Source: Bilabrum cf. latius
Lineage: Eukaryota
Direction of reading: 5' to 3'
Length of the DNA: 64,000 nt
Assembly (NCBI GenBank): GCA_965178125.1
Contig: OZ237774.1
Coordinates: forward strand, 310,001 to 374,000
The notes beneath the pieces are model-generated. The model was not told the origin of the DNA. It saw only the letters and a program-made list of their open reading frames with translations, and searched no databases. This document shows, in pieces, positions 36,944-64,000 of this stretch. A program made the position numbers and the translations under genes. Numbering within the stretch: the stretch's first letter is position 1; each line of letters opens with the position of its first letter.

Positions 36944-38323
36944 TTGGGGTGCAATGCCCGCACCCTAAGTGGCGACAACGCCGATGAGGTCCGCGCTGGA
37001 TGGCTGATGCAAGCAGCTGAGCTAGCTGTGTCTGGCGGAAGACCAGTCGAGAACAGCGCAGTTGGGGCAGCAGGACAAGAAATGGCATGGGCAGCAGAAA
37101 TCGAGACTGTCCGCACGCGTATTGTGACGCGAATGCAAAATGATGGGGAAGCCGTTCCCGCGGAGCTATCAAGCGCTGTCACAAGCGTCTGTCTAGACGA
37201 TCCTTCCCGGATTCTGATGCTATAGCGAGCGACATTGCATGAAGCTGTTGAGCTATGCCAAGAGCTTCCAGCGGACCATGAGCCAGCGCAAGCTGGGCTG
37301 TGCCATGTGGTGAATGAGGCTGCCAGTGTGTTCGAAGCACCACTCCTAGAACAAGAAGTACCACCGGCGGACGGTGAGGATGCTGCAATTGGTGGAGAAG
37401 CCGGTGGTACGTCCGCACTCTCTGCCGGAGCAGGTGAGAGCGAAGGTCAAGCCACTGGCAGTGAGGGCCTGGGGCTCCATCTACCGCACTACTGGGAGGC
37501 ACCTCTGGGAACATTAGGTCAGAGTGAATCTCGCCAAAGCAGTACTCACTCCACGGCGCCTCACCTACCCTCAGGAAGCGGAGACTAGTGGGACGAAGAA
37601 ACCGCAAGCAGCGTCCCCGGATTCGGTACTGGGCTTCTGGATCCCGATAGCTCTGCTGTTTGGGGTCCGGATCCTGGTCATTCACTGCGGGGCACTGCTG
37701 TGCATGATTCGCCCGGCCATCACTCCGGTGGCTCGCCTGGCCATCACCCCGGTGGCTCGCATGGCCATCACTCCGGTGGCTCGCCTGGCCGTCACTCCGG
37801 TGGCTCGCATGGCCATCACTCCGGTGGCTCGCCTGGCCATCACTCCGGTGGCTCGCCTGGCCATCACTCCGGTGGCTCGCCTGGCCATCACTCCGGTGGC
37901 TCGCCTGGCCATCACCCCGGTGGCTTGGCCAGCCTGCCCACCCATGGCGTACCGGGCGCATCACCTACGCTTGCCCAGGATCATGCATGGACCGAGGCTG
38001 TTCCCCCACCAGGCCCAGGATCGCCGAATTACGACCCAACTGTGTTTACGCAGTACTGGCGGCAGAGGCTAGAGTCTGCAATGACGCAAGAGCTCCACGG
38101 ATATGGATCTGACAGTGGCTCCGACGGTTCTGTATCGGAGGCTCCGGATGGCGCTGGAAGACGTCGGAGGGGCCATCGTCGAGGCACGCAAGAATCCATG
38201 TCGCCTTGGCACCACGATGCCTCGGGAGCAAGGCGTAATCGTCACAGGCGCGACTCCGATTCTGATCATGATGGGATGGGAGGCTCTGGAGGGCTCCAAC
38301 GCGGTCTGCCTAGCGACCCATGA
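36944..38323 (+). CDS. Host hypothetical protein with GHHSGGSP repeats (2 in-frame TAG; start uncertain)
   Basis: ORFs 36944-37225, 37235-37588 and 37700-38323 share a frame, joined by TAG; ends TGA. Confidence 0.55.
37712..37925 (+). repeat. 24-bp coding tandem repeat (about 8-9 units)
   Basis: Unit ggccatcactccggtggctcgcct, no spacers. Confidence 0.9.
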
Positions 38324-38651
38324 ACTCTTTGGGACAGAACTGGTGACTAGTGCCGATTTTTGTCCTTCAGATGTGCTATATTTTGGGTTCTGGCACAACT
38401 TTGCATGAGTTGGGGAGTGCCAGTACACGCTTGTCGAACTTGAGCAAGATAGCTCCTCGGTACGGGTACTAGACTCCAATTTCTGTTTGATTTGCTTGCT
38501 GCTCAGATTGATTTTTCCAGGCCAATTTTCGACTATAAACTACGCGATGTCTAGGGATCCCGGATACACAAGCCGCCCCGCCCCAAAACCTCGATGGGCC
38601 TGCAACAGCCAACCAGGAAGCGCCTGCTTCAATAAGTGATCGCTTCGAATC

Positions 38652-39512
38652 TCACTTCCCTGAGATTTCCTTGCCCACCTCTTGCATGTAAGCGTACGCA
38701 GCAGGAAGCTGCTCCATTCCGTACCACTCCGTTTTCTAAAGGTGGGTGTCGTTGATCCTGGTCGCAAAGTGCCAGGGGTTGAAGCCCGCCATCACGTCGT
38801 CGTGCGCCTTGGCGTAACCCACGAAAATCTCCAGCATCTCCTTGATGGTCTCGTCCTGCGGTGCCAAGGGCTTCCGAACGTCAGCGAATGTGCCTGGGAC
38901 GAAGATGGCGCGCTGATGGGGGGCCATCTTGGGAAAAATGGTCTTCTCGTAGATCTGGATCGACTCGTTGGCGCTCCCTTTCATGTCCTCCCAGTTGTAG
39001 TGGTCGATGGAGAACAAATCGAGTGCGGCTGGGACGTGAGTCCAGTTCGTCATCGTGTCCGAGCACTCGTTTTCGTAGAAGAGTGTAGCCTTGCCGTTTG
39101 TCGCCGCGTCGACGTCTTGTCGGATCCGGTTGGCCGCCACCTCGAACACGTCGAGAGGGATTGAGTGATGACACGCCTACTCATCACCCAAAAAAATGCC
39201 CTGCACGGGGGCCTTGTCATCTCCTGGGAACTTCGGCAGGTGCGGCTTGATTTCGGCCAGAATACCCTCCCACGTCTGCTCCCAGCCAGGACACAGATCA
39301 TGCTGCTCCTTGCACCATATTCCGGAGCCCATTCGATAAAAACCATTCATGCCAAGGTTCTTGCCAGTCAGTATATCATCGATAGAGCTTGTTTGGCACC
39401 AATTCGCCCACTTGTACTGCTCAGTTGGGTAGCATTCGTAGAACATCATGATGTCTAGAGCAGCATGCGCCACCACACTCCCAAACAAAATACCTCCCAA
39501 TACTCGCAACAT
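38652..39512 (-). CDS. Secreted protein, possibly glycoside hydrolase-like (2 in-frame TAG)
   Basis: Signal peptide MLRVLGGILFGSVVAHA; IFLGDE, FSIDHY, FVPGTF; ends TGA. Confidence 0.6.
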
Positions 39513-39672: not shown

Positions 39673-40881
39673 TCACATCCAACCGCCTCCGCCCCCGCCC
39701 TGGAATCCTCCCCCTCCCATGCCCCCAAACCCACCGCCGCCGCCGCTGAAGCCTCCACCCCCTAACCCCCCCAAGCCACGGCCACCCCTTCTGCCTCTTC
39801 CTGGGCCTCTACCCAGCCCTCCTGGCATCCTCAACCCACCGGGCATACCCCCGGGGCCCCCCAAGTCGGGGTCAAGGCCCCCCGAAAACCCAGGGGGTGC
39901 CAACTCGTCCCCCCATCCCCTGCCTCCTGGGCCGCGGCCCCCCCTACCGCCATGATCCCCCGGAAATATGGGGTCATACCTAGCCCCTGGTGGGACCCCA
40001 CCCCTGGGGACACCCCCTGAGGGACCCCCCCTCCCCCCGGTGAACATGGGGTCGTCTGGTCCCACCAGCATGCCACCGCCCCTGCCCCTGCCACTGCCGC
40101 TGCCATCCCCTAGTCCACCAGGCCCCCCGCCTACCACAGAAGGCAGACTGTCTGGCAAACCGGCAGGGAGCAAATCACCAGAGCCAACTCCCCCTGTCAC
40201 AGGGCCAGCGAACCCTGACGAACGCTCGCCGCGGGATGCCCCGCCCGAGCCGCCGTCCCGATGACCAGAGGCAGGGGCAGGTGCAGGTGCAGACGAGCTC
40301 CCACCAGATCCTGACCCCCCTTCCCCCGCACCTCCCCTCGAGGTGTCCCCAACGGCGCCCCGCAGGCCGTCCATAACTGCTCGCTTCAATTCGTCGACTT
40401 TCGAGGGGTCGAAGAGAGGACCCAGCCAAGCAGGAATCCCGGCTCCCTCACCGGCCCTTACAGTGTAATTCACAATGGGTATCCGGACAGCGCGCGCGGA
40501 GGCTGTTGCGGCTGTCGTGGCAGTGTACTCGCTCGGTGTGATGGTGACGACAAGCTCGTTCGGTCCTTCACCAGACCCGCCACTTGCACTCGTCGATACA
40601 GCTAGTGTCACTCGTTGTGTACTTGTTCTGTGCTTAATGGCGTTGGCAGTCCACACCATGGCACTTGTGCCTGGAGAAGCCACAAAATCGCTGACTGGCA
40701 AGTGGGATCTGGCTGCTTCCTTGCTGCCTCCGGCCTTCGCAGTCGTCGTACCGGATAGATTGAATCCATCGGACTATACTATATGCGCTACTGCCAGAGC
40801 TAATGCTGCAGCCGCATTCCCACAGGTGACAGAGCCGGCGAATATGCCCACCTACGTTGGGAACGGGGTTGCCCCTGCCAT
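39673..40881 (-). CDS. PSMF1: Proteasome inhibitor PI31-like protein (2 in-frame TAG)
   Basis: GGMLVGPDDPMF and VPPGARYDPIFP motifs, Gly/Pro-rich tail; ATG 40881 is reached through two TAG. Confidence 0.75.
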
Positions 40882-42445
40882 AGCACTTAAGTTCCCGTGC
40901 GCGGATTTGCGAGGCAGCAAAGACAAGTGGTGGCAATCGAAAGAACTTATTTCGGACCTCGGCTAATTGTGTACCGATAAAGGCTGTATGGCTGGACCGT
41001 CACTTTGCTTAGCGGTTGTTTGCCTCATCTTCAACTCTTGGCTGAGCATTTTCTTGCTGATGAAAGGTAAACCCAAGGCTCGATGGATCCGCTTTGACCA
41101 GTAAAAAGATTTAAATCATTGTCTGCAGCCGTAGGCCGAACGGTTATTATTCAATTCAGTCCATGTATCCCTTCTTTGCTCGCCTGGTGAGATCGCTCAC
41201 AATTCCATCGTTCGTGTATCCCACCCGCGTGTGCATTGGCTTTTTCACGTGCCTCTACGCGAACTTTGCTGTCGTCATATAAGGCATGGGGTCGTGTGAG
41301 ACTGCCTTCACCTTCGCCTTGCCCAGCGAAAGAGTGCTGCTGAACGGTGGCGGCAGGCGCTTCTGATGATTGTTCAGCCGAGATCGGGCGGCATTCGGGT
41401 GGTACGGCACGGATGGCTTCTTCACGGCACCCGCACTGGTGACAGTCACGGTGCCTTTGCAGTGCGTGTCGGATGCAGCGCTGCGAGCAAAGCAAAAAGA
41501 GTGCAACTGTAATGTTGAGGGCATGCAGGCACAGATGCAAGCTACTTCCAAGCGGCCGTCTAGCAGACAAAGCCATATTGAAAGTTGTCTCACCTCTTCC
41601 TGAAAAGCTTCGGGGGATTCAATATGCTGCTGTGTGATCCGTACGCCTTTGATGCATCAAACTTGGGGGCTGATTTTTTCTTTTTGGCGCCCTTTGGCCT
41701 ACATGGCTTGGCAAAATACTGTCCATTAATCATAACTGTTCCCCTCGAGTGGTCGACACGCTTTCCGTGGCCTGGAGCTTTTCCCCCTTTGGCTGCTCCA
41801 CCCTTTGCTGCGCCGCTAGCAGGTCTTGACCTTCTGTCGTGTCCGCTGGCCGGGGCGGATCTCTCGGGGGCATCATGCATTTCTTCACCTTTACTTTCTT
41901 CGTGCGAAGCATCTGTGGCTCTGGCTCCTTCGCCTGCCTCCATAGTCAGCTTGCTAGTGCGCCGGGTTTCCGTTGCGTTTTTCGGTCTGGCGCCGTCGTG
42001 AAGTGCACGCTACCATGGAATCCGTTGTGATTGTCTTTAGGGGGCAATTTCGCAGCAACGCGTCAGCGAACCACCCATTTAATAATCATCAATTGATCTC
42101 GTTATACTCACAGAAAGGTTTTGTTTGTCTGCAATGGCATCAATCGCACTCGGTGGGGGAGATGCACTCGAACAAGAAATTGCTGCCGTCGAGGCGCGAC
42201 TCTCACAGGCTTTTACCTCGGGCCCCTACGGGTCTCTGGAAGCAACTGCTTAGAAACGTAAACTCAAGGCCAGGCAAGCCCCAGCTCCCGGGGGAGCAAG
42301 GAGTGCCGCGCAGAGGTTGCCGCGCAAAGCGAGGCGGCGCGGCGACGCAGCTGGGCGAGCAAGGCAGCCGTCCAGGTTACAGGAATCAGAAACGAAAGCG
42401 CGAGACGCGCCCCCTCCCATAGCAAGTAACGAAAGCCGAAGGGAC

Positions 42446-45400
42446 ATGTCAGAATCCTTCCTGCAGTCCAGACGACGATTCGATGCGTCAGCGAGCGGGC
42501 TGCCTGGAGTCGTCGATTCAATGCGCAAGTCGGGCCAGCAGCAGGCGAACATGCGCGCCTCTGGTACCGCTGGGACACGAAGCAATTTCGCTGCGGGGAT
42601 GCGTGGCACTGCAGGCTCGTCCACGGCGGCCTCCATGGCCTCTTTCGGCAGCAGCCAGCGTGGGGGAGGCATGGGCATGGGCATGGGCATGGGCGTAGGG
42701 GGTGGTGCCAGTGGTAGCGATCGGCTTGCGGCCACGGGACCCATGGTTGGTGTGCGTGGTAGTGTGACGAGTGCGGAGTATGGCGAAGGGGGCGGTGTGC
42801 GCCTAGACCAGCGAGGGGCGACGGTCGAGCTGGGAGCCATGCGAGGCAGGTTAAAGGGGCCTGGGGATGGGGATGGGGCCAACGGGGCGCATGGGGCCAA
42901 TGGGAGGAGCAGGGGTGGAACGGGGTACAGCAGCCTGCAGCGGTCACCGTCCAAGCTGCAGTCCGCGCTTGGTGTGACGAGTGCGAGCGGGCTTGGGTCC
43001 ACCGGTGCATCCAGCTCGGTCGGGAGCGGCACGCTGCGAACCTCGGGGCGAAGGTTCGGCCCGCTACCAGACGGCCCCAGCAACGACTCGGAGCCGGAAA
43101 CTATGGTAGGTGATGCGTTCGAACGTTCCTTCGGTTCTGGCGCCCCCAAGCCGCCGTCCCTGCGTGACATGAAGCCGATCGGGGCGGAGCTGGTGTACTC
43201 CAGAGGGGGCACCCCGGGGAACAGCAGGTCGGGGAGCAGGAGCAACTCGCCGGTGCAGGGGACCCAGGGAACAAGGGGTGGGGCCAGGCAGGGCTCTCTG
43301 CGCGGGAGTGCGAGCCAGCCCGCTCTGGGGGCCGGACATGGGGCAAGTGGTAGTGGCGGTGGCGGGGGTGGGGATGGGAATGGGGGTAATAGCAGGCGAC
43401 ACGCAGCGCGGTTGGCAGCGGCTGCGGGTGCTCGGTTGGCTCACGGCGACGGCGTGACGAGTGGGACGCTCGGGTCGCTGGGCGGGATGGGCTCCTCCAC
43501 CGGCTCGCTCGGTTTAGCCTCGTTGGACCGTGGTGTAGGTTCCGCAGGAGGGGGCGCCGCGCAATCCGGGGAACACGTGAGGCCGCTCCTCAGGTAGTCG
43601 CTTGCCTCGGGCACGTTCGATTCGGAACTTTCCCGGAAAATTCGCGCAGCGGCGCAAGCCGGATCGGCGGCCGCCGCGGCCACAGCCCGAGATACCTTGT
43701 TCCCTGGTAGCACGGGTGGGCAGATCGGTGCAAAAGATGGTACGGTGGGGCTACGGTAGGCCGCGGCGCAGGCGGAGCAGGAGCTGCCGCCGCGGTACCG
43801 CCGGGTGCTCGCGATGCGGCGCAGGTTCGAAACCCAGAAGGGGCGGCGGCAGGCCGAGGAACAGGCGGCAGCCGCCGAGGGTATGTTGGCGGGAGGCGGA
43901 GCAGAGCACGGATCGCACTCGTCACACCACCAGAGCGGCCTGGTGGGTCGGGCCCCGGGTTGGATCCGGAGGGGACAGGAAGTGCGGCTGGGGCTGGGGC
44001 GTTACGCCAAGGACCCGGAATCGTAGTAGGGTGCGGGGCCCGGACAGGGGGCCGCGAGCAAGGCTGGTGCAAGCGTGGGCGGTACTGCGGGCATGGGTGC
44101 AGGCACAGGAGGTGCCGTTGGCAGTGGCATGGGGTGGAGGCTGGAGGAACAGGCCGGTGCAGGCTCTTCCCATGGAGGCATGGGCGGCGGGGGCGCTTCA
44201 TTCACCAAGGCCTCCAAGTCAAAATCGAAGATGAAGATGACGAAGAAGAAGTCGATGGCAAGGATGGGCTCTGGGGGGTCCCGCGGGTCACCACATTCGA
44301 AGGATGGCAGCGGTACTGGCACTGGCAACAACGCCTCCGGGTCACGATCTCGACCCAAGAGCTACGGCAGGACACCGCAGAGCAAGGGTCCCGGAAGATC
44401 GAACGGTAAGGGCAGCAGACAATCCTCACACCTGCGGAGGCCCTCAAAGTCAGCAGCTGCTTCCGCTGGTGCTGCTGGTGCCGCTGCTCTCGAAGGGGGC
44501 GCTTCCGTGGATTCCCCTGGGCTGGCTGCCCGGCTCGGGATCTCGAGCAAGCCGAACTCAACGGCTATAGCGGCCTTCACCGATGCAATGACGTCACTGA
44601 GTGCGCCCGTGCCGATAGGAGGCGTAGACCGCAACGCCAAGGAATACCGCGTGCGGGGGTTCGATCCCGGGGCCTTTGCAGCGCAAGACGCCCGCGCTAT
44701 CAGGTGGCACATAGAGGACGCGGGTCGCGCCCTTCACGCCCTCCAGAAGCAGATGGCGGCGGCGGAGGGGGAGGCCGACGGCGGGCCGCCCTCTCGGTAC
44801 GAGATCCACGGGGGGCAGCGGCGGCGCCGCGCAGGAGGTTCCGCAGGGGGCGATGGTTCTGGCTCCGCCAACGGCAGCGACGAGGACGAGGACGAGGACC
44901 CGCTGACGATGGACGACGAAGAGCTCGCTGCGAAGAAGAAGAGAGACGCCCGGAAAGAGGCCATACTGGAGGCACAGGACGCGAGGGAGAAGAGGAGGGC
45001 GAAGCGGAGACCGACGGGTGCCAAAGCTGCGGTGCGAAGAGCAACGAGCGACGCCTTTGGGCTGGCGCCGCCGAAATCGCTCCTGGATCCGGAGATCACG
45101 GCGATGCTGGACGGGCTTCCCGCCGTGGGGGGCTCCGGGATTGTTCCCTCAGGGGCCTCTGGGGGGAGTTCGTCCAAGGGAAAGAGAAGGTTCCTTGGTG
45201 GTTCGCTGGGGGCTCGCAGGGACGGTGAGGGTGAGGAGGGGGGTGACGGGGAAGAGTTCGGTTTGGACGTGCTCGGGCCTGTGCCAGGCATACCCAGGGA
45301 ACAAGAAGAGGAGCAGGAAGAAATCAGGGCACAGGAAAGGAGGCGGCGAGGCAACCGCGGCACCGCGCGCTCGGACGCGTTGTCTGCGGAACCGGAGCCG

Positions 45401-45898
45401 GTGGGGCAGTGGGAGGGGCTCAAGCTGGTGGGCAGCACGCGGTCGGTGATGTCGGATAGTTCCGGTTTCGGTGCCGGTGACGGGGGGCAGGGACACGGGC
45501 TTGGGGAGGAGCGTGACTTGGTGGGCGAGGCCGGGGGCCTGCCCCGACTCACCAAGATCGGATCACTTCCCCCGCAGCTGAGGCCTAAGCGCACCCCCCT
45601 GCAACAGGAGCGCATGGTGGAGGGGCTTAAAGGCAGCAACCGCCCCCCCAAGCGCCAGAGCTGTGCCCTCTGCAACCATCCGTTCGCCGTGGTGAACCTG
45701 CCCACGCCTGTCACCAGAAAGGCAGTGTACGCCCTCTTGGATCAATGGGGGGCGCAGCCGGCAGGCGCGCCGCAGGCGGTCGCGCGGATGCGGCTGCCCC
45801 CCGCGTGCTATGAGCGGGTTAGGGTGTGTCGGCTGTGCACGCAGTTCTTTTAGGTGGTGGCCGATGAGATGATGGCGCCCACGCTGGACCCTAGGTGA
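42446..45898 (+). CDS. Gly/Ser/Ala-rich protein with C-terminal CxxC...CxxC (5 in-frame TAG; start uncertain)
   Basis: ORFs 42317-43597, 43805-44026 and 44075-45853 share a frame; first TGA at 45896. Confidence 0.6.
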
Positions 45899-46476
45899 GC
45901 GTGAGAGGGTGAGGGTGAGGGTGAAATTGGTTGGCGGCATTCGATTGGGTCGTGGATGCGCTGCTTGCGGTGCGACTAGCACCCTTGGCACTTCATGTTG
46001 TGTTGTTCTTTGTGGTTGAAGCATCCATTTGTTTTCCTTGCAACACCGTCCGGCACACATGCTCCGGTTTCCCTCGAGGCGCAGCGTCTGATTTAAATGC
46101 TGTAACGTGCACGTTGGCATGCCAAAAGCCGTTCCTTTCGACATTGTAGTGTTGGGGTAGTATATCGTAGTAAGCATGTGAGGAGTGAAATTATCGGTAC
46201 TTAATCTTTGCCAGAGGCTCGTTGGAACAGTGATATTGTTTGACTTGATGCCGGCACGTGAAAATGTCTGCTGTCGATCCGTTGGTCGAACTTCCTGGGT
46301 TTCCTTAGCTGTCAAGGATTCAGTTGTTCGTTGAAGCTTTAACTCTAAGTGCAATTCACATTTAAATATGACTTGAGAGCGCTTGGAGCTGTTGACATTT
46401 TCCCGCTTTCGAAAAATCCGGTCCGCCTAGAGCTTGCCTAATACATATCATTGCAGCCTAGTCCACGCTGCGTGAT

Positions 46477-48982
46477 ATGGCAATTGCGTCTGCTCAGTCA
46501 GCGATTCGACTAACGACAGGTATGGGCGCTGGTGGCGCGCCCAGCACCGCCATGGGCCTTCGCACGGGCCTTGGTACAGCGTCAGGCGCGGCATCGTTCG
46601 GCACCGTGGACGGGCAGGTGCCCGAGGGCAAGATGACGAGCACAGTGTACGGGCTGATCGCAAAGCAGGACTATGCAGAAGCAGCGCGAGTGCTCGTCAT
46701 CCAGCTGCAGCAGTTCCCTAGGTCCCGCGCTGGCTTGAGCCTGCTGGGCTACTGCTACTACCAGCTGCAGGACTTCAGGAGCGCGGCACAGACCTACGAG
46801 CAGCTCTGCACGTTTTACCCAGGCGTGGAGGAGTACTCCATGTATTACGCGCAGTCGCTGCACAAGGCAGGGCTGTACTAGGACGCTTCCAGGGCCGCTT
46901 CCAGGGTGGAGGGGGAGGACACGGAGCAGCGCGTGCGGCTGCTGCAGGCCAGCATCAAGTGAGTGCAGTGCAATGCAATGCACCGCGCATGCGTCGCGGT
47001 GCATCGTATTCTTGATGTGATGTGGCTGCTGTCCGTCATTTTTGCCATGCGCGTGCTTGCTTTCCTCTTCAATGCACATCGCCCGCAGGTATGACGAGGA
47101 GGACGTGGAAGGGTGCAGGGCACTGTTGAGCAGACTGGACGCCACGGATCCCGACCCGATGGTCATGCACGCCTGTCTTGAAGTCAAGGCCGGCAACTAT
47201 GACGAGGCGCTCGAGAAGTTCACCGCGGCCGAAGAGGCACTGGGACAGGCGCCCTACCTCTCGTACAACATGGCACTGTGCAGGTACCACAAGGGAGAGT
47301 GGACAAAGGCGGTGGGAGAGGTGTCCAAAGTCATCGACAGGGCAGTCACTGAGCACCCGGAGCTTTCCGTGGGCTCTTTCACTGATGGGATCGAGACACG
47401 GTCCGTTGGAAACACGCAGACTCTTCGGGAAACTGCCCTCGTGGAGGCCTTCAACCTCAAGGCCGCGATCGAGTGGCAGATGGACAACAAGATCGCGGCC
47501 AAGGAGGCCCTCACCGACATGCCGCCGCGATCCGAAGAGGAACTCGACCCCGTAACCCTTCACAACACCGCACTCGTCAGCGCGGCAGAGGACCCCCAGC
47601 AAGCCTTCAGGAAGCTCAACTACCTGCTGCAAGCCGCACCCTTCCCCCCGGAGACCTTCGCAAACCTCCTTGTTCTCTACCTCCAGCACCAGCTGGTGAA
47701 CCTGGCGGCGGACGTGTTGGCTGAGAACGCGCACCTTACCTTCAAATACCTGACCAAGGAACTGTACGAGTTCCTGGATGCTGCCGTGCTGGCTACATCC
47801 AGCCCGGAGGAGGCCTACCGCCGGTTGGACATCCTCTCCGCCCAACACGTGGACGGTCTCCGCAGACACACCAAGGGGATCCAGGATGCGAGGCTGAAGC
47901 GGGATAATGGTGCCATCAAGGCCGCTCTGCAGCTGTACGACGATGCACTGGACAAGTACATCCCCGTGCTGATGCGGATGGCAGCCATCTACTGGGACAG
48001 GCAGCACTACGCCATGGTGGAGAAGATCTTCAGGCAGTCAGCCGAGTTTTGCTCAGAGCACCCCGTTTGGAGGCAGAACGTGGCGCACGTGTTCTTCTAG
48101 CAGGGCAAGTACCAGGACGCGATCCGGTACTATGCTCCCATGGTGGAGCGACACCTTGAGGCGGAGAGGGCGGGGGCAGGCGCGGTGGCCGGCGAGGGGC
48201 TGCTGAGCGTGCAGGCAATCCTGGTTGCGAATCTGTGCGTGTCATACATCATGACGTCGCAGAACCAGAGGGCAGAAGACATCATGACGGCCGTGGAATC
48301 GGCGGAGAAGGAGTGGGCGGCCAGCCATGCGGACGCTGTGGGCGGGGGTGCAGCGGGGGGCGGGCCCGTGGTGGCTGGGCCCGGGGCCATGGCGGGAGGG
48401 GGCAGCGGGGGGGAGAGGCCGTACCACCTGTGCATCATCAACCTCGTCATCGGCACGCTGTACTGCTCCAAGGGGAACTACGCATTTGGATTGTAGCGTG
48501 TCATTTCCTCGTTGCAGCCATACGACCAGAAGCTGGGCCCCGATACGTGGCACTATGCCAAGCGATGCTTCATGGGCCTGGCGGAGAGCGCCGCGAAGCA
48601 CATGGCCCTTCTTGACGACGAACTTCATGCGCAGATCGTTGAATTTCTCGTGGCAGCGGAAGAGGCGGGGGCAGGGGTGCAGGCAGCTCTGCCTCAGGAG
48701 CAGAAGGCCGAGGAGGCAGCCGCTGCGGCGGAGGGCATGGTGGCTATCGGGGCAGATGGGTCGGCGACGGGAGCCGGTGCTGCTGGGGGCGCGGGGATGG
48801 GGGGCGGGCTCGAGATGGAGTCGAAAGAGGACGGAGAAGAGGAGGATGGGGCGGCGGCTCTGCTGGCGGCTGCCGAGGCGGAGGCTGCTGCGGGTGCCGG
48901 TGGGCTGGGGGCCAAGGGCAGGACGGTGGCGCAGGAAGCGAGGATGCTCCGGATGCTTTTCTTGAAGCTGAGGGAGGGGTGA
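46477..48982 (+). CDS. IFT70: Intraflagellar transport protein IFT70/TTC30 (intron 46959-47088; TAG at 46879, 48098, 48494)
   Basis: RSRAGLSLLGYCYY, LVEAFNLKAAIE, DMPPRSEEELDPVTLHN, PFPPETFANLL, YHLCIINLVIGTLYC; GT-AG intron restores SIKYDE. Confidence 0.95.
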
Positions 48983-52121: not shown

Positions 52122-52152
<31 letters not shown>

Positions 52153-54175: not shown

Positions 54176-55543
54176 TCACCCCACGCGCCTCTTCTTGGCT
54201 GCAGCTCTCCCTCCGCCCCTCCGCCCCCTCCCCCTCCCCCTCCCGCTGCTTCCAGTGGTGCGTCGCGTGCGGGCGGGCGATGTCTTCGCCCCGCTGGCCG
54301 TCCCCGACGGGGAAGCAGGGGGGCTGGCGGCAGCTTTGGCAGCAGCTGCCACACTTAATGCCGGCTTCTTTTTCACTGCGTCAGACAAGATCCTGCACAC
54401 GTTCGCAGCGATTGCTTTCTCTCTGGAAGTGTTCGACGCTTTGTCTGCCGCCGTTTTCTTCTCCACCACCTCCAGCTCGGACGCGTCGGAGAAATCCCCG
54501 TCCGAGTCGAGCTCGATGGGCTCGTCCCTGCCCCTCTTGTTCCCCAGGGCAGGGCCGGTGCCCCCGCTAGCGGATCCGGAGCCAGCACCAGCCCCCGAAG
54601 CAGGGCCCGAGGAAGAGGAGGAGGAGGAGGAGGAGGAGGAGGAAGAGGATACCGCCACAAGCTCCATGTCGTCGTCATTGATTTCCTTGGCAAGCGTCTC
54701 CTTGCTCGTGTCCACGTCCATGAGGAACAGCCGGGGAATAATGGCCCCATCCGTTCGCATCATCGATTCTACCAGCCTCTAGGTCTCGAGAAACAGGGCG
54801 TACATGGGCGAGTCGGTGGGCCTGCATTTCCTCGGGTATTCCTTCTCCTCCTCTGTTCCCTGCCTGGACCAGCAGTAGTCTCCCTTGCACTTGTACGCGG
54901 TGGGCTAGCTCTCGTAGTGCGCGCTTCGCTTGAGTTCGAATGTCCCGCAGGCGTACACCAGCCTCTTCCCCATGTCCCGGATGTAGTCCGCCACGTGCTT
55001 GGACTTTTTGCTGTAGAAGCGCAGGGTGTGCTGCTCCTGCAGGAACATGCCCACGAGTGCCCTGGCGTACTTCATGAGGGACGTGGGGCCCCCGTGCACC
55101 GGTTGCAACCACGCGGACTCGTAGACGGCGGCGATGCCCCCAGTGCGGGGGGTCTCTCGGATGGTGTCAGGAACCTTCATGAACATTAAGGTGGCGGGGG
55201 TCCCGTAGGCTGGGCTCGCGATTTTCGATGCGACTTTCTGCTTCAGCGCCAACGCCATGGCTGGCCTTTTCCCAACCGGGGCATCCTCGATCTCCATCGC
55301 CTCGCGAAGCACGTCCAGCTCGTTCACCATAACGATGGGCCAGCGGTACACGTACTTTGTCGTGAAGTACATGCCCGGCGCAAGGTACGGCCACGATGGT
55401 CTCGGGGCGAGGTTGTTCTGCTTGATGCTTTGCGGGAGAGCGTCGAGGCTGCCGAACGGGTTCACGACTCGTTTGTCCCATTTGTCGGCTTCGGTCCTCT
55501 GCGGCACTCGTGCTGCACGGCACGCCCTCGTCTGAATCTGCAT
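54176..55543 (-). CDS. Host hypothetical protein with Ser-rich and basic tail (2 in-frame TAG)
   Basis: ORFs 54905-55543 and 54176-54763 share a frame; ends TGA. Confidence 0.55.
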
Positions 55544-56209
55544 CTATACTGCCAGCTGTCCACTGTTTACAGTGAATCCAACGCCTGGTTGGTATACCAG
55601 AGCTGCTTGGAGCTAAGCCGATGTCATTTTGGCAGACACCACCACGGCTCTGTACGTCAATCCTTGATCGATACACGAGATAACTTTCCGAGGGCCGTAC
55701 CCGTGCTTAAAAGAATTTGCTCCCAAGAAGCGCGTAGCTACTCTGTGCACGCGGTCGAGCTTAGCTTCCGCGCTGTGCACTTCTCCCGCCTCGGTCCGTA
55801 TACCCTGTCTCCATGCTGCGAGCTGCGCATGCGCGTCCGCTCGCGCCTAAGCTGTGCGAGCTGCGTACGAAGATGGTGAAAATCCGTATTCGCTCGGTTC
55901 CGGAATCTGTTTGACGGCGTCGTGAACAAGCTGGTCCTCCAGCGCAGAAGGCAGTGGATTAGGTGCAACCTCGTCTATCATCATGCTGGCGATCCTAACT
56001 CTTTGTATGAACAAAGACAATAGAAGTATGTACAGCACGGCTCCTTGTTGTACTAGAACAATGGGTAGTGGGGGTAGAAGGGTTGGTCCACCGAGTATTT
56101 TTGCTCGCTTTATCGGGTTCCGGGGTTCCGGTTTGATAGGGCGGCGATTGCTCAAGATTCGTTCGTTCGTTCGGCGACGTTTACCGTACACTTTGCGCCA
56201 AGATTATCT

Positions 56210-58033
56210 TCAGTCATTCTTCCACCTGTTCCTCTTCAAGGGTTCGGGCCCGTCCGCCTCAGACCTCGCCTCAGAAATCACGTCCATCCAGATCGACAGC
56301 TCGTTCGTCGTCATGCCGTCCGCCCCGAACATGGTCTCTAGGGCGGGAAGCACGACCCCTTCCGGCCCTTTGATGTGGTGCAGGGTCGCGATGCGCTGCG
56401 TGCTCGGCTTGTGCCACTCGTCATATTTCTGCTCCACATCCCTCGAGTAGAACCAGTCTCCTCCGATCTTCCCGCGGAGGAACTTCACACCTGCATCGAT
56501 CAGGCAAGAGCCCAGCCGCCGATCACCCGCCCAGCAATTGGCCGTCCTGTGGCTGCAGTACGGTATTTCTCTCACCAGGAGGTCCACCCCGGCGCGGGTC
56601 ATCATCACGCCGGCCCCCGCACCGATGTAGTACGACTCATCGTGCCGCTGGTAGTTCTGGCACTTCTCCGCCAGCTCGATGCCCCCCGCCAGGCCGTACA
56701 CCATGCCGAAAGCAGCGGGGTTTGCCCAGGGGTAGTCGTCTCTGGGTGCCACAGCCACTGTCTTGGAGGTGATCGACTCCGGGTCCTTGCCGTCGGCCTT
56801 TGCCTTGGCTCGGGCCTCTGGCAGGTCAGCCACCCGGCCGAAGTCCGGCTCCGGATCCATCTTCAAGGGGTGCACCTTCGGGTGCTCCGAGATGTCAACG
56901 ATCTCGTCGGAGCCCCCCCCTCTTTTTTCGTTCCTGGATTTCTCCAAGCGGGCCTCGAACTCAGACCTGAGCTCTTTCAACTCCTTCTCGCTGAAATCGC
57001 TCTTTCGGGACCGCATTTCCTTAGACTGCAAGAATAGTTTCAGCTGCGGCAGGAAGAAGTACGTGTCATCATCCGCCATCACGTACCAGTCCACCCATGG
57101 CATCTCTTTCCTTGCGACATGGAAGGCACCCAGGTGCTTGATGAAGTCCCTGTCCCATGCCGGGGCATCGGGCCCGGACTCCTTGTCCGTGGGCACCGCG
57201 AACTCAGTGACACCGTCGTGCAGCTTGGGCAGCGTGAAGTTGTGCCCTCGCCAGAGAACAGTGACGCCCTCCTCGGTGGCCTTGTCTGACACGCCCACGA
57301 TGTTCCTGCGAGGCAGCCTGCCAAGCCACGAGAGCATGTGCGGGGGCAGCCGCTTCGGTGCCACGTTGTCCCCTGTACGCAGGATGAAACCGACGCGTCT
57401 CCAAAACGGATCACGGACGGGTCTTGGGCCGACCTCGGCCGATTCGGGCAGCAGGGGGGCCCATAGATCTTGCTCCTCCTTCTCTTTCTGAAGCCTGGCG
57501 AGCTCTGCCAGCTTTTCTGCCGTATTGGCGTCCACGGGGGCTTTAGTCGGAGGACACTCTGCTGGTGGTGGAGGAGAGGGGCACACGGGGGGTGCTACTG
57601 CCTCGCTTGGAGACTTATTCTCGCTGCTTCCAGCGGCGCTCTGCTCTGTCTGCTTGAGGACCTCCGATACGATCGCAGATATGAGCTCTGTGGATGGCGG
57701 AGACTATCCTTGGCCTGCTTTGGCTTGCATGGCTACGTGTTCTCCAATCATGCGGAGTTGATCCTACGACAGATGCACTCCTTGCGATGGCTGGTTTCCT
57801 GTGGATGGCAGCTCAACGTTTTGATCGCCTGAATGCGTTTCAAGCAGAGCCCCTCCATTCACGTGCGTATTTGTTATGCCATGGATGCCACCATGCGTAA
57901 ATATGATTCCAGCCGGTACTCCCAACAGAACTAGAGCGATGGCAACAGCAACGATGCCATACTGCTTGGACCTGTTCTCATAGGCCTCCTGCACATGCTA
58001 GTTGGTGCGCCCTCGGCCTGGAGTGGAGGCCAT
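56210..58033 (-). CDS. Fringe-like / GT31 glycosyltransferase, type II membrane protein (about 4 in-frame TAG)
   Basis: DWYVMADDDTYF, GAGAG, AGDRRLGSCL; N-terminal TM YGIVAVAIALVLLGVPAGIIF joins in frame through TAG. Confidence 0.75.
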
Positions 58034-59756: not shown

Positions 59757-62700
59757 ATGAGGGCAGCTGCTCTGGCTGCCGTTTTAGTGCTATCCCAAGC
59801 TTTTGCCGCTGAGGTGTAGAAGCTTAATCCAGGCGTCGCTATGGTGAGAATCAATCATTTTCAGTGCTTCCGGGTGCTGAACATCACATGGACTTGTTGC
59901 TGCAATGTCGAAGGCTGCACTCAGCTCTGTACCGTTTGTGTTGGATGGACTGCTTGCACCACTCTACGGCCACGCATGCAAGCCAATCAAGCTTCTCTCA
60001 AAATGTGGTCCGCTTGCTCCGCTACTCTTGCAGACAAACTAGTCTATTTCTAGCGCAAGCTTCCACTACTACTCCGTGGACGTGGCCAATTACCAGAAGT
60101 TCAACCTCACGCTCAAAGTGACCGTGCTCGACGGCGACGTGGACCTGTACATGGCCTGCTCGGTGGACGCTACTGGTGACGCCACTGGCACTCCATCGCT
60201 TCGTCACCACACAGCACTTAGCATCAAGAGCGGAACGACGACGGACCTCATTCGCGTGCTGCCTGGTGCTCCAGAGAGCGAAAGCGCACCGCTCTGCCAG
60301 CCGGAGCAAGGCAAGACCGCCGTCACGTACTTCTTCTCCACGCACGGGTACCAGCTGTCCAGCTTCTACACCATCGTTGCACTCGTCACACGTGCAAACG
60401 ACGAGCCCTGGATGCACCCGCAGCCCCTCGATAGCGGCGTCCCTCAGGCGGACCAGGTGAACGCCTACAAGTACAACTACTACGAGTTTACGGTGGACAA
60501 GCCCGCCCAGGGGCCCGATCCGGACATCAGAATCGTGCTGTAGCAGGTGACCAACGACCCCGACATGTACGTGTCGTTCGCTGACAAGTCCACCTCGCCG
60601 CCCGTGGGAGCAGGCCAGTGGGCATACGCGGCCATCGCTCAGGACGGCACGGACACTGTGACGATCCACCCGGGCACCACGGGCTGCCACGCCAACGCCA
60701 AGTGCTACTGCACCGAGTGGCCTTGTAAGGTGCAGATTGCGGTATACGGGTTCGGGAGCGACGCGGAGTACATCGTGACGGCTGCCGAGTCCGGTTCATC
60801 GGATTCCGTGCAGCTGGTGGACGGCAGGCCCACGCCCGGCACGGTGGGACCTGATCAGTACCAGTTCTACAGGTTCCGAGCGGCTTCTGACAGCATCTCC
60901 GAGCTTACATTCACGCTGACGCCCACATTCGGCGACCCCGACATCTACGTGTCTGACTTGATTGAGCATCCCACTGCAGCCGGCAAAACGAATGCGTCGC
61001 TTGCTGGTCATTTCTGGTACAGCGAGGCCACGTTCGGGCTGGAGCAGGTGAGGCTGATGCCACCTGACGCTCACTCAGGCTACTGGTACATTGGCGTGCA
61101 CGGCTTTTCTTACACGAGCGACGTCCAGTATACGATTCTGGCACATGCTGAGGACTCCAAGTCGAACGGTTCCAAGATCGTGGAGCTGGCAGATGGTCAG
61201 GCGCAGGAGGGCGATGTGGAGCAGGGTGCCATCGCTTACTACAGGCTGCAGATTGGAAGCGGGGCTCGCAAGGACCTGCAGATCGCCGCGCAGGCGCAGT
61301 TGGGCGAGGTGTCACTCGTCGTCAACACATGCCCGTTCTCCGATCGTACCAAGTGCGGGGACTACCTGCCGACCAGGGACAACGCGACTTGGTCATCGGA
61401 GACGCAAGGCACGTCGCTTCAGTCCATCTACATCCTGGCCGAGGATCCCAAGGCCTGCGCGAGCTGCTCATACATCATCGGGGTGGTTGGTCGCACCCAG
61501 TCGCATTTCTCCGTGGGCGCCACCACTGCCGACACCACCACCGTGCTGCAGGACGGCGTCTACCGCGTGGCGCACGTAGAGGAGGGACGGTACGAGGACT
61601 TTGTGTACGAGATGTACTCGACCGATTTTGACCTGGTGATCACGCTGGTGCCTCTGTCCGGAGATGCTGACGTGTACGTGACGTCGTGCGGGCAGATCGA
61701 CGGCTCGTACGACCCCAGCCAGTGCGTCACCCACCCCAGGAAGGGGGCAGGGAACTTCACCTGGTCCGCTGCGACGTACGGCGCCGAGACGCTCTTCATC
61801 CCGCAGGACGACAAGGACGCGTGCACGCCTGTGCCCGGCATCGCCTGCCGCTACTACATCGGTGTGACCGGCTGGAACGGCCCTTCCACCTTCATGATTC
61901 AGGCGTACAACAAGTCCACCACCGCTCGCACCCTTAGTCTGGGCCAGCCGACGGCGGGGCTGGTGCAGCAGCACGTGTACGACCACTACCAGGTATTCTT
62001 GCCGCGCAACGGCACGGACGGTGGCGCTCCTACACCGACCTCTGTGATCGCCTCCCCGCTGATCGGAGACGTTGATCTCCTGATCAACCTCGGGAATGGC
62101 GCGGATGACAAGCCACCCACGCTGGGTAACGCGCAGTACAGCTCCACGGCGGCGGGCTCTGCAGACGATCGCATCACGGTCTCCAGCACGGACCAGCAGT
62201 GGGCGGAGCATTGCGACCCGCTCCCCGCTGGGGTGCCTTGCAGGGCCCTTGTGTCTGTGTACGGGTTCACGTACCCCAGCGCTTTCTACACTCTATCGGC
62301 TTCCAACGCGGGGCGTCAGCTGCTCCCCGGGCAGCCCGTGAGCGGTTCGCTGACGGCGGGGAACTACGACTACTATTCCTTCGCCGTTGGTGAGCCGCAC
62401 AAGGTGCAGATCCAGGTGCAGGTCATCAGCGGCGACCCTGACGTCACTGTGAGCGTGACCCAGGAACGCCCCACCATGGAGTCGGGCACCTGGACCGCCG
62501 GCTCTTTCGGTGACGATATCGTGACTGTGTATCCCAAGCCCCTTGACCCTCGCGCCTGCGACCCCCCGTGCCGGTACTATGTCGGCGTGTACGCCGCTCT
62601 GGGGATGGATGCCAACTACAGGGTGGTGGCTAGCCTGGGCGACCAGGACCCGATCGTGTTGCGGCCGGGGGAACCGGTGACCTCTCACCTGGCCAGACAC

Positions 62701-64000
62701 GAGGAGAGCCTGTACTCGCTGACTCTGGCAGAAGAGCCGAAGTACGCCTACGTTGACATCAACTTGAGCCCCTCCCTGGGCGATTCGGACCTGTACGTGA
62801 GCTTCAACGGAAACAGGCCGGGGCCCGACAACTGGCAGTACAAGTCCACTGCATTCAGCACGGACGATTACGTCAAGATCCACACGTATGACTGGCCGTG
62901 GCAGATGTACTGCAGGGGCAAGCCCACCTGCGAGATCCTGCTGACCGTGTACGCCGTCAGCAACACTACGTTCCAGCTGTCTGCCACGCCATCCACCTCG
63001 GCTACCGAGTTGCGCGCGGGCGTGGCCATCTACGACCATGTCGCGGTAGACACGTGGGACTACTTCTCCTTTTAGGTGCCTAAGAGCCCCGCCAGCCAGC
63101 AGCCCGTGGTGACCTTCAGCCTGACTGTATTCATTGGTGACCCCGACATGTACATCGCGTGGGACTACCCGAGGCCCAACGCAACCCACAGCCAGGCCAG
63201 GAGCGCGTCCTCTGGGCTGGCCAAAGACGTCATCATCTTGTACCCCCCGGGACAGAAGGACTCGTCACACGCGCAGAGCTACTGGGAGCTTGCGACCGCG
63301 GTGTCTGGCGTGCAGGGAGGCGATGTTCCCACCCAGGGGTATTCCCCTAGGACCCCTGCTGACCCCACCATGGGGGCCATGGACGCCGTGCAGACGTAGC
63401 TCGAGGCCTAGGGAATGCGCGTGCTGTCCGTCGCGCGGGATGACGGCGTTGTGGGGGCCGGTTCATCGGGCTCCGGTGCTCTGCGCGGGGGCGCGAACCG
63501 GCTGCTTGTGGCGGCGCAGGTGCCCGCACACGATGTCGGCAGTGGGCAGAACTCGGCTCTGCCTCCCCGCGAGCCCGAGCACCCCCTGGGAGCCGTGGGC
63601 ACGGGGTACTGCAGCGTGGTGACGGGTCCCTGTACCTACTACATCGGCGTCACCGGGTACCGCGCCAACGCCTCGTTCGCGATTCTCGCCCGGACGTCGG
63701 CCGCCAACGTGACGCAGCTGCGGGACGGGCAGACCGTGACCGACTTTGTTCCCCAGAAGGAGTACCAGCAGTACGAGCTGAGGGTGTCCGCGGCCGGGGT
63801 GGCAAACGGTGCTGAGCTGTCCGTGACCACGCTGGCGGGTGACGCCGACGTGTTTGTCACCGTGGACGGCAGCCGGCCTTCGATCAGCAACAGGCAGTAC
63901 TACAGCCAGAAGACCGTGGGGCAGGACACGATCTCCATGCGGCCAGGGGACGGGACCTGGGACCAGTGCGGGGCGCAGGAGGGCGGCTGCCGCGTGAGGA
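59757..64000 (+). CDS. Large secreted protein with tandem PPC-like beta-sandwich repeats (intron 59844-60033; runs off window)
   Basis: Signal peptide MRAAALAAVLVLSQAFA; repeated GDPDIYV / YYIGV units; at least 6 in-frame TAG. Confidence 0.75.

What the first reader, a model, noticed from the sequence alone, without database searches (positions are those of the whole stretch)
36944..64000. Host nuclear code reads UAG as sense (best fit Gln) while UAA and UGA stay stops
Seen: every host gene reconstructed in this span, and both retrotransposons, are broken only by in-frame TAG (more than 50 by manual count) and never by TAA. Conserved IFT70 has three (GLY*DAS, VFF*QGK, FGL*RVI). Complete host genes end in TGA. 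Internal alignments favour Gln: Ngaro-1 HDV*VWSRHIPG vs Ngaro-2 QDVQIHVKHIPG, and PPC repeat IVL*QVTND vs IQVQVISGD. UAA still terminates: 16 of 19 virophage genes use it, and so does the reconstructed Ngaro-1 YR at about the same position as the Ngaro-2 YR stop. Known: codes that uncouple UAG from UAA are rare (NCBI table 15, Iotanema, some ciliates, a rhizarian with Leu). I know of none in a Cafeteria-like virophage host, but cannot check this.
Basis: partly seen in the sequence, partly recalled or inferred. Interest (0 to 1): 0.9.

Follow-up and report, generated by a model that had tools for sequence, protein, structure and literature searches.

The report
UAG read as glutamine in flagellate
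The GC-rich nuclear genes of this virophage-carrying, probably bicosoecid-like protist use the normal stop codon TAG as an ordinary codon, most likely for glutamine, while TGA (and apparently TAA) still end genes, a rare kind of genetic-code change.

Summary
In 10 host genes (36944-64000) I count 35 in-frame TAG in 7,274 codons, with no TAA or TGA. Two Ngaro-like retrotransposons elsewhere in the window add about 24-28 more. All 9 complete host genes end in TGA.

TAG sits in frame at about 79% of its off-frame density. TAA and TGA are fully excluded: 0 seen against 24 and 154 expected.

Contigs of four public runs from four studies show no differing letter. Two runs hold GT..AG-spliced contigs that carry the TAGs, which rules out assembly error or editing.

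Glutamine is the best-fitting residue:
- A 94%-identical Ngaro-2 copy has Q at one TAG site.
- A conserved PRQTP motif has Q in 6 of 6 aligned relatives.
- Q leads the log-odds over 15 sites by 3-5 bits.

The three IFT70 sites do not show Q; their columns read P/A/E, M and S.

"UAA stays a stop" is inferred, not shown. No host gene here ends in TAA. The support is its absence in frame and 16 of 19 virophage genes ending in TAA. No tRNA or eRF1 could be checked.

This is the code type known from Iotanema and two phyllopharyngean ciliates, here in a new, probably stramenopile lineage.

The parts
37007..38323 (+). Host gene g36830 (low-complexity, His/Gly/Ser repeats); in-frame TAG at 37223 and 37586; ends TGA 38321
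   Evidence: no Pfam family; weakest coding signal (GC3 0.52)
38652..39512 (-). Host gene g38652 (secreted-looking, no family); TAG at 39177 and 38736; ends TGA 38652
   Evidence: no PDB relative
39673..40881 (-). PI31 proteasome-regulator homologue; TAG at 40852 and 40774; ends TGA 39673
   Evidence: Pfam PF08577 E=9.5e-11
42134..45898 (+). Host gene g42086 (1255 codons, low complexity); TAG at 42251, 43595, 43757, 44024, 44027, 45851; ends TGA 45896
   Evidence: TAG 44024/44027 lie in X5 piece 44001-45327 with 0 other letters
46477..48982 (+). IFT70/TTC30 gene: exon 1 46477-46958, GT..AG intron 46959-47088, exon 2 47089-48982; TAG at 46879, 48098, 48494; ends TGA 48980 at the conserved C-terminus
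   Evidence: 2093 homologues, best 54-56% identity; tblastn exons; splice joint in runs X5 and X7; columns at TAG
49281..53042 (+). Zn(2)-Cys(6) cluster protein gene; TAG at 49593 and 49707; ends TGA 53040
   Evidence: Pfam PF00172 E=8.7e-6
53128..53973 (+). Small LRR/ankyrin-like ORF; TAG at 53389, 53434, 53440, 53659; ends TGA 53971; least certain gene
   Evidence: Ank_2 E=6.6e-4, below cut-off; GC3 0.56
54176..55984 (-). Orphan host gene g54176; TAG at 55847, 55613, 55544, 54905, 54779; ends TGA 54176
   Evidence: all 5 TAG lie in X5 piece 54656-56082 with 0 other letters, 3 also in an X7 piece; no homologue found
56210..58033 (-). Host gene g56210 (membrane protein, no Pfam family); TAG at 57998, 57764, 57704; ends TGA 56210
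   Evidence: all 3 TAG lie in X5 and X7 pieces with 0 other letters
59757..64000 (+). Secreted PPC/UPF0669-repeat protein gene: exon 1 59757-59842, GT..AG intron 59843-60032, exon 2 60033 to window end; TAG at 59817, 60040, 60541, 63073, 63397, 63409; no TAA/TGA in 1351 codons
   Evidence: Pfam PF17065 E=1.9e-13; splice joint in X5 and X7
2381..7911 (+). Ngaro-like retrotransposon 1 (outside the stated span): ORF1 2381-3673, pol 3674-6952 (RT/RNase H), YR 6514-7911; 12 in-frame TAG (2708, 2723, 3887, 4055, 4400, 5507, 6005, 6248, 6545, 6935, 7306, 7807)
   Evidence: RVT_1 and Phage_integrase
21363..27316 (+). Ngaro-like retrotransposon 2 inserted in the virophage helicase gene: 1919-codon ORF 21363-27122 with 12 TAG; YR frame 25979-27316 with 4 TAG; both end in TGA
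   Evidence: RVT_3; paralogous copies of 87-100% identity in public assemblies
7750..36200 (.). AT-rich (30% GC) mavirus-like virophage, interrupted at 21200-27700 by Ngaro-2; 19 ORFs, 5,922 codons; stops 16 TAA, 3 TGA, 0 TAG; no in-frame TAG
   Evidence: MCP_V20_C, rve integrase, helicase

Best explanation
The nuclear translation system of this host decodes UAG as an amino acid, most probably glutamine. UGA is the working terminator. UAA is not decoded and most likely still terminates.

Inferred mechanism, by analogy with Iotanema spirale and the ciliates Hartmannula and Trochilia: a tRNA-Gln with anticodon CUA, one anticodon change away from tRNA-Gln(CUG). Such a tRNA pairs with UAG but not UAA. 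It would work together with an eRF1 whose N-domain no longer recognises UAG efficiently.

Shown here:
- TAG is frequent in frame in every host gene and in the resident retrotransposons.
- TAG is present in spliced transcript-like contigs.
- TAA and TGA are absent in frame.
- Homologues and close paralogues favour Q at the TAG sites.

Inferred, not shown: the suppressor tRNA, the eRF1 change, and termination at UAA in host mRNAs.
For: 1. ORF structure. TAG-sense reading lengthens ORFs 3-5 fold; TAA-sense reading does not.

2. Counts. In 14 CDS (10,740 codons) there are 54 TAG, 0 TAA and 0 TGA in frame, against 68.5, 24.4 and 154 expected from off-frame rates. 35 of these TAG are in the 10 host genes.

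3. Not an artefact. Four runs of four studies show 'other letters: none' over 44001-64000. Runs X5 and X7 hold contigs that skip 46958-47089 and 59842-60033 with GT..AG ends. One X5 contig carries the IFT70 splice joint and spans the TAGs at 46879 and 48098; its exon-2 piece, which holds 48098, has 0 other letters, its exon-1 piece has 1, and TAG 46879 is covered with 0 other letters by the X7 piece 46483-46958. 17 of 28 TAG in that stretch lie in listed X5/X7 pieces with 0 other letters.

4. TAG is conserved. In Ngaro-2 copies of 87-94% identity, predicted ORFs stop and start exactly at the window's TAG positions: P0276 ends at 1542, P0287 spans 1687-1893.

5. Gln.
- P0276 (237 of 251 identical) has Q at TAG 1414.
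- TAG 992 sits in a PRQTP motif with Q in 6 of 6 aligned relatives (four of these rows, P0121, its cluster-mate P0271, P0125 and P0131, i.e. three 90% clusters, are named).
- TAG 467 is Q in P0285.
- TAG 1414 is Q in P0121.
- The Ngaro-1 TAG at 6248 has Q as the commonest residue, 23 of 115.
- Summed log-odds over 15 alignable sites: Q +5.1 to +5.6 bits; the next best (H, or S at cap 50) between -0.6 and +2.7; L and E negative.
- PPC repeat columns: T4 Q3 S2 V1, and A2 T2 R2 D Q E F (the seed repeat is counted twice).

6. UGA. 9 of 9 complete host genes end in TGA. For IFT70 this falls at the conserved C-terminus.

7. UAA. There are 0 in frame. If TAA were a Gln codon used like CAA (22% of CAA+CAG), the probability of 0 among 58 is 4e-7. 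TGA-only ORFs do not extend through TAA. 16 of 19 ORFs of the resident virophage end in TAA; they would run on 6-355 codons if TAA were read through.
Against: - In the best-conserved gene, IFT70, no TAG site favours Q. The columns are P57/A16/E10/Q7 of 110, M117/L2/Q1 of 120, and S113/G6/Q1 of 120. Whatever the residue, at least one near-invariant column is replaced.
- Several Ngaro sites align to R, H, A or G.
- The Q margin is only 3-5 bits, and much of it comes from one element family.
- A Q opposite TAG in a close paralogue is also what a C/T transition gives under any meaning.
- No host gene in the window ends in TAA (0 of 9), so UAA termination in host mRNAs is not seen. The virophage could owe its TAA stops to life in other hosts or to factors of a giant virus.
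- No tRNA is in the window, no genome is held, eRF1 was not seen, and there are no peptides.
- The kinds of runs X5 and X7 are guesses of the index, not on record.
Confidence: 0.72

Rival explanations
1. UAG is a sense codon but stands for another amino acid (Ser, His, Leu, Glu, Ala or other), as UAG = Leu does in the rhizarian exLh and three TARA phyllopharyngean ciliates.
For: IFT70 columns at TAG are M (117 of 120) and S (113 of 120), not Q. Ngaro-2 sites align to R, H, A and G in relatives. H and S are the runners-up in the log-odds. SerRS, LeuRS and AlaRS ignore the anticodon (established knowledge; for LeuRS also stated in PMC5304391, section 9).
Against: Q leads by 3-5 bits over 15 sites, while L, E, K and M are negative. 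Q is found in 6 of 6 relatives at the PRQTP motif and in the 94%-identical paralogue. No single alternative fits both IFT70 columns.
Confidence: 0.1
2. Both UAA and UAG are reassigned (NCBI table 6 type, UGA the only stop). UAA is merely rare because the genome is GC-rich.
For: All 9 complete host genes end in TGA and none in TAA. Coupled UAR reassignment is by far the commoner type (PMC5304391 abstract).
Against: There are 0 TAA in 10,740-11,200 in-frame codons, while A-ending twins are 14-29% of their pairs (CAA 22%). That gives P = 4e-7 to 2e-4 for zero among 58. Off-frame density predicts 24. 16 of 19 virophage ORFs end in TAA.
Confidence: 0.06
3. UAG is ambiguous: sense inside genes but still a terminator near mRNA 3' ends (Condylostoma/Blastocrithidia-like), or read through at partial efficiency by a near-cognate tRNA-Gln.
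For: The Ngaro-1 YR frame has a TAG (7807) close to where the Ngaro-2 YR ends, relative to the shared alignment. The virophage avoids TAG in frame altogether. With 9 genes, absence of TAG stops is weak evidence.
Against: 0 of 9 host genes and 0 of 19 virophage ORFs end in TAG. Up to 6 TAG occur per gene, from codon 12 to codon 1240, which partial readthrough could not sustain.
Confidence: 0.08
4. No code change: the TAGs are assembly errors, RNA-edited sites or mutations in pseudogenes.
For: The premature stop codons in Cafeteria endogenous virophages that were re-sequenced proved to be assembly artefacts (PMC8547959, passages read; PMC10120064, passages read).
Against: Four runs of four studies show no differing letter, and spliced contigs keep TAG. 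Only TAG, never TAA or TGA, breaks 14 CDS. The IFT70 alignment is full length and ends at the conserved C-terminus.
Confidence: 0.02

Closest known systems
Iotanema spirale (Fornicata) nuclear code: UAG = Gln, UAA and UGA stops (Panek et al. 2017, PMC5304391; abstract and section 9 read)
   Same: Only UAG is reassigned, with Gln the inferred meaning, and the UAG/UAA pair is decoupled. The same mechanism is predicted: tRNA-Gln(CUA) plus an altered eRF1.
   Different: The lineages are unrelated: here a GC-rich genome whose IFT70 groups with a bicosoecid. In Iotanema UAA is the primary stop. Here every host gene seen ends in UGA, and UAA termination is only inferred. tRNA and eRF1 were not seen here.
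Hartmannula sinica and Trochilia petrani (phyllopharyngean ciliates): UAG = Gln, UAA the preferred stop (McGowan et al. 2024, PMC11687900; abstract read)
   Same: UAG-only reassignment to Gln, arising independently.
   Different: Those are ciliates with UAA as the preferred stop. Here the host is not a ciliate by gene structure and composition (inference), and UGA is the stop seen.
Rhizarian exLh and three TARA phyllopharyngean ciliates: UAG = Leu (PMC5304391, PMC11687900; abstracts read)
   Same: UAG alone is reassigned.
   Different: Leu scores negative here.
NCBI table 6 type codes (UAA and UAG = Gln: many ciliates, hexamitin diplomonads, oxymonads, some ulvophytes)
   Same: Stop-to-Gln change with UGA as a stop.
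   Different: There is no in-frame TAA here (0 of about 11,000 codons).
Cafeteria burkhardae endogenous mavirus-like elements with Ngaro insertions (Hackl et al. 2021, PMC8547959; passages read)
   Same: An AT-rich virophage with rve integrase in GC-rich host DNA, interrupted by a GC-rich insertion of about 6 kb carrying RT, RNase H and YR.
   Different: That paper reports no code change (passages searched for 'stop codon' and 'amber'). IFT70 here is only 54-56% identical to any database protein. The Ngaro ORFs here are full of TAG.

Membership tests
UAG-only stop-to-Gln nuclear code (Iotanema type; NCBI table 15 pattern) | UAG occurs in frame in conserved nuclear genes of mature mRNA | tested here: met
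   35 TAG in 10 host genes. Spliced contigs in two runs carry them.
UAG-only stop-to-Gln nuclear code (Iotanema type; NCBI table 15 pattern) | UAG aligns preferentially with Gln in homologues | tested here: met
   Q is top over 15 sites at +5.1 to +5.6 bits, with a margin of 3-5 bits. Q occurs in a 94%-identical paralogue and in 6 of 6 relatives at one motif. The three IFT70 sites do not show Q, so this is met with modest strength.
UAG-only stop-to-Gln nuclear code (Iotanema type; NCBI table 15 pattern) | UAA absent in frame and used as a terminator of nuclear genes | tested here: inconclusive
   Absent in frame: 0 against 24 expected. But 0 of 9 host genes end in TAA. Only the virophage uses it, in 16 of 19 ORFs.
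UAG-only stop-to-Gln nuclear code (Iotanema type; NCBI table 15 pattern) | UGA terminates | tested here: met
   9 of 9 complete host genes end in TGA, with 0 in-frame TGA against 154 expected.
UAG-only stop-to-Gln nuclear code (Iotanema type; NCBI table 15 pattern) | tRNA with CUA anticodon and Gln identity; no tRNA(UUA) | not testable with these tools
   No genome is held. There is no tRNA in the window by ARAGORN or Rfam.
UAG-only stop-to-Gln nuclear code (Iotanema type; NCBI table 15 pattern) | eRF1 N-domain altered at stop-recognition motifs (GTS, NIKS, YxCxxxF) | not testable with these tools
   eRF1 is not in the window and no genome is held.
UAR = Gln code (NCBI table 6) | UAA also occurs in frame as a Gln codon | tested here: not met
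   0 TAA in 11,200 codons; P = 4e-7 under the CAA/CAG ratio.
UAG = Leu code (exLh type) | UAG aligns with Leu | tested here: not met
   Leu log-odds are negative at 13 of 15 sites, and Leu is not among the top 8 residues.
Context-dependent stop/sense codes (Condylostoma, Blastocrithidia type) | The reassigned codon also terminates genes | tested here: inconclusive
   0 of 9 host genes and 0 of 19 virophage ORFs end in TAG. The sample is small.

The most novel reading that the evidence does not exclude
This may be the first nuclear genetic-code change in a stramenopile, in a host that lives with virophages and therefore with giant viruses, and the change is visible in the parasites. The resident Ngaro retrotransposons use TAG as freely as host genes. 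The resident virophage has purged TAG completely: 0 in frame where 4.3 would follow from the host TAG/CAG ratio and 94 from its own off-frame rate, and 0 of 19 stops. That pattern fits a code change acting as a translational barrier to incoming viruses, with the virophage (and presumably its giant virus) kept readable under both codes. It would make the 'code change as antiviral firewall' idea testable in a natural eukaryote-virus-virophage system.
Probability: 0.2. Interest if true: 0.88.

Novelty: new member of a known kind. Interest (0 to 1): 0.72.

Why it matters
Nuclear codes that separate UAG from UAA are few. From the papers read here: Iotanema, the rhizarian exLh, and two Gln and three Leu phyllopharyngean ciliates.

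A further independent case in a GC-rich, probably bicosoecid-like flagellate would add a data point on how eRF1 and tRNA-Gln(CUA) co-evolve. It would also show that UGA, rather than UAA, can be the main stop in such a code.

Practically, standard-code gene calling shatters this organism's genes. Public protein sets already hold its Ngaro ORFs as fragments cut at TAG. Annotation, phylogenomics and contaminant screening need the right table.

The host also carries a virophage and retrotransposons that treat TAG in opposite ways. That offers a natural test of how mobile elements and viruses cope with a host code change.

Tried and rejected
- Whole genome: none held, so no genome-wide codon inference and no tRNA, eRF1 or 18S search.
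- tRNA and other RNA in the window: ARAGORN 0 genes; Rfam 0 matches at gathering scores.
- Sequencing-run index: no RNA holder listed. The kinds of X5 and X7 are guesses. I rely only on what their contigs bridge.
- Orphan gene g54176 (5 TAG): no homologue among 8000 scored candidates; only low-complexity PDB hits.
- g38652: one insignificant PDB hit.
- Close relatives that could show TAG/CAG exchanges:
  - Ngaro-2 pol in viral contigs: none.
  - IFT70 in metagenome contigs: 15 loci, best 56% identity, none close.
  - Virophage MCP in viral contigs: none.
  - Virophage MCP in the phage collection: none.
- Exact look-up of four ATG-started window ORFs: not in the collection.
- Earlier notes of this scan: nothing for this genome, for relatives or by words.
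- Literature: eight searches found no report of a code change in Cafeteria, bicosoecids or a virophage host. Subscription journals and all supplementary files were not searchable, so a published description may exist.
- The first MAFFT run timed out and was repeated with faster settings.
- Considered and rejected: pseudogenes, editing, assembly error (see rivals). Pyrrolysine or selenocysteine-like recoding was also rejected, because there are too many sites, spread through all genes, and Q appears in relatives.

Full report
**Layout of the window.** GC-rich DNA (about 60% GC) lies at 1-7750 and 36200-64000. An AT-rich block (30% GC) lies at 7750-36200 and is interrupted by a GC-rich insert at 21200-27700.

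The AT-rich block is a mavirus-like virophage:
- Sputnik-type major capsid protein domain at 31834-33636.
- rve integrase with a weak, sub-threshold chromodomain match at 30582-31757.
- A helicase gene at 19652-21187, cut by the insert.

The insert and the left GC-rich block each hold a Ngaro/DIRS-like retrotransposon with reverse transcriptase, RNase H and tyrosine recombinase. This is the arrangement described for Cafeteria burkhardae endogenous virophages (PMC8547959, passages read).

**The observation.** Under the standard code the GC-rich parts are a mosaic of medium ORFs. Reading TAG as sense fuses them:
- 412 to 1928 codons in the insert.
- 368 to 1092 in the left block.
- 1373, 1314 and 1270 in the right block.

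Reading TAA as sense does nothing.

I built models for 10 host genes in 36944-64000 from ORFs, Pfam hits, homologues and contig joints. Together they hold 35 in-frame TAG in 7,274 codons, with no TAA and no TGA. The 9 complete genes all end in TGA.

With the two retrotransposons the count is 54 TAG in 10,740 codons, or 58 in 11,200 with looser starts.

The absence of TAA is not an effect of how the ORFs were cut. With TGA as the only stop, 10 of 13 gene ORFs stay exactly the same. An eleventh extends 23 codons into the IFT70 intron without a TAA. The other two gain 28 and 2 codons, holding three TAA in all, upstream of the start codon.

Off-frame triplet rates in the same DNA predict 68.5 TAG, 24.4 TAA and 154 TGA in frame. 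Observed: 54, 0 and 0. TAG is therefore nearly unselected in frame, while the other two are excluded like true stops.

**Artefact, editing or pseudogenes?** Contigs of four public runs from four studies were laid on 44001-64000. No differing letter and no indel was reported. One of the four (X1) may be the sample of origin.

Runs X5 and X7 hold contigs that skip 46958-47089 and 59842-60033 with GT..AG ends. Runs X1 and X6 run straight through. The index does not record the kind of these runs, but precisely spliced contigs for two genes in two studies are what transcript-derived libraries give.

A single X5 contig carries the IFT70 splice joint and spans the TAGs at 46879 and 48098. Its exon-2 piece, which holds 48098, has 0 other letters; its exon-1 piece has 1 other letter, and TAG 46879 is covered with 0 other letters by the X7 piece 46483-46958.

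17 of 28 TAG in that stretch lie in listed X5/X7 pieces with 0 other letters. The exon-1 TAG of the PPC gene (59817) lies in such pieces too.

The IFT70 model is full length. It has two exons and 792 codons, is 54-56% identical to the best database proteins, and ends in TGA at the conserved C-terminus. Assembly error, editing and pseudogenes are thus excluded for practical purposes.

The three TAG columns in 110-120 homologues are:
- P57/A16/E10/Q7.
- M117/L2/Q1.
- S113/G6/Q1.

Two homologues share the exact flanks VAHVFF_QGK with M at the site, so that alignment is not in doubt.

The retrotransposons are more telling, because relatives of graded distance exist in public assemblies.
- A 94%-identical copy of Ngaro-2 (P0276, 237 of 251 residues) has Q exactly where the window has TAG 1414. 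Its ORF ends just before TAG 1543.
- P0287, 87% identical, spans exactly the interval between TAG 1680 and TAG 1894. TAG positions are thus kept in diverged copies.
- In more distant relatives, TAG 992 lies in a PRQTP motif with Q in 6 of 6 aligned rows (the four rows named come from three 90% clusters).
- TAG 467 is Q in P0285, and TAG 1414 is Q in P0121.
- Other sites show R, H, A or G.
- For Ngaro-1, the TAG before HIPG (6248) has Q as the commonest residue, 23 of 115.

A simple log-odds sum over the 15 alignable sites puts Q first at +5.1 to +5.6 bits under four weightings. The next-best residue (H, or S at cap 50) lies between -0.6 and +2.7. L, E, K and M are negative.

The internal repeats of the PPC protein give polar columns that include Q: T4 Q3 S2 V1, and A2 T2 R2 D Q E F, with the seed repeat counted twice.

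Gln is therefore the best reading, with moderate statistical weight. It is helped by the prior that stop-to-Gln is the usual fate of UAG (PMC5304391 abstract). Under TAG = Gln the IFT70 sites are replacements reachable in one step from TCG (Ser) or TTG (Leu). This is inference.

**Is UAA still a stop?** This part is inferred.

For:
- TAA never occurs in frame.
- If it were a Gln codon used like CAA (22% of CAA+CAG in these genes), zero among 58 has P = 4e-7. With the other A/G codon pairs, P = 3e-9 to 2e-4.
- The virophage's 19 ORFs end 16 times in TAA, 3 times in TGA and never in TAG. They would run on 6 to 355 codons if TAA were read through.

Against:
- None of the 9 host genes ends in TAA. 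With GC3 near 0.7-0.8 that is unsurprising, but it leaves no direct example.
The Ngaro-2 YR frame (25979-27316) ends in TGA. The Ngaro-1 YR frame passes a TAG at 7807, at the GC/AT junction, and meets TAA at 7909 only inside AT-rich flanking DNA.

**Mechanism.** By analogy with Iotanema, a tRNA-Gln(CUA) is the only anticodon that reads UAG and ignores UAA. An eRF1 weakened for UAG would complete the change (PMC5304391 section 9). Neither could be examined here. No genome is held, and the window has no tRNA.

**Who is the host?** The IFT70 protein falls in a clade of 15 sequences with SH-like support 0.997. That clade includes Bicosoecida sp. CB-2014, with a labyrinthulomycete further out. This is a single-gene FastTree result, so only a hint. 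Nothing in the databases is closer than 56%.

**Known or new?** UAG-only reassignment is known from:
- Iotanema (Gln) and the rhizarian exLh (Leu) (PMC5304391).
- Hartmannula and Trochilia (Gln) and three TARA ciliates (Leu) (PMC11687900; abstracts read).

Eight full-text searches found no report for Cafeteria, bicosoecids or any virophage host. Supplements and subscription journals were out of reach.

I file it as a new member of a known kind. The main difference from the known cases is that UGA, not UAA, is the stop actually seen in host genes.

**A side result worth following.** The resident parasites differ in their use of TAG. The Ngaro elements use it at host-like density, about 0.6% of codons. 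The virophage has none in 5,922 codons and none as a stop. Its own off-frame rate would give 94 in frame, and the host TAG/CAG ratio applied to its 27 CAG would give 4.3. The virophage is thus readable under both codes.

Noticed in passing
7750-21200 and 27700-36200: The virophage is completely free of TAG in its 19 ORFs: 0 in frame in 5,922 codons and 0 as a stop. TAG is common off frame there (rate 1.6%). The virophage would be translated identically under the standard code and under the host's code.
   Followed up: partly
2381-6952: In Ngaro-1 the gag-like ORF1 (ends TGA 3671-3673) and the pol ORF (starts 3674) are in the same frame, separated by that single TGA. This suggests pol expression by UGA readthrough. 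In Ngaro-2 the two parts are fused in one 1919-codon ORF.
   Followed up: no
about 6000-6600: Ngaro-1 carries an internal tandem duplication of about 99 residues of the RNase H C-terminal part (DHWKNELRG...SNLR twice), each copy with the same TAG (6248 and 6545). The start of the YR frame is also repeated at 6217-6390.
   Followed up: no
19652-21190 and 27698-29233: Ngaro-2 is inserted in the virophage helicase/primase gene, so this virophage copy is probably disabled for replication although its other ORFs look intact.
   Followed up: partly
1001-1750: A short AT-rich island lies left of Ngaro-1. Ngaro-1 may also sit inside virophage DNA, in which case the element would begin near position 1000 rather than 7750.
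   Followed up: no
Ngaro-2 residues about 1490-1503 (window about 25830-25870); Ngaro-1 TAG 6005: Predicted ORFs of three related elements (P0121, P0125, P0126) all end at the position that matches the Ngaro-1 TAG before GTWP. This suggests a TAG kept at one site across distant Ngaro families of organisms with this code.
   Followed up: no
44250-44900: A low-complexity stretch in gene g42086. Many contigs of all runs break or join elsewhere here. A 628-base skip, with 27 other letters in between, is seen in three runs. This is probably a repeat-length variant or an assembly collapse.
   Followed up: no
54176-55984: Gene g54176 is covered by the transcript-like contigs of X5 and X7 but has no detectable homologue in 5.8 billion proteins. 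It is a lineage-specific gene.
   Followed up: partly
IFT70 tree (proteins P0088, P0003): A protein labelled as from Symbiodinium sp. KB8 groups with the bicosoecid and the window's IFT70. It probably comes from a heterotrophic flagellate living in the algal culture.
   Followed up: no
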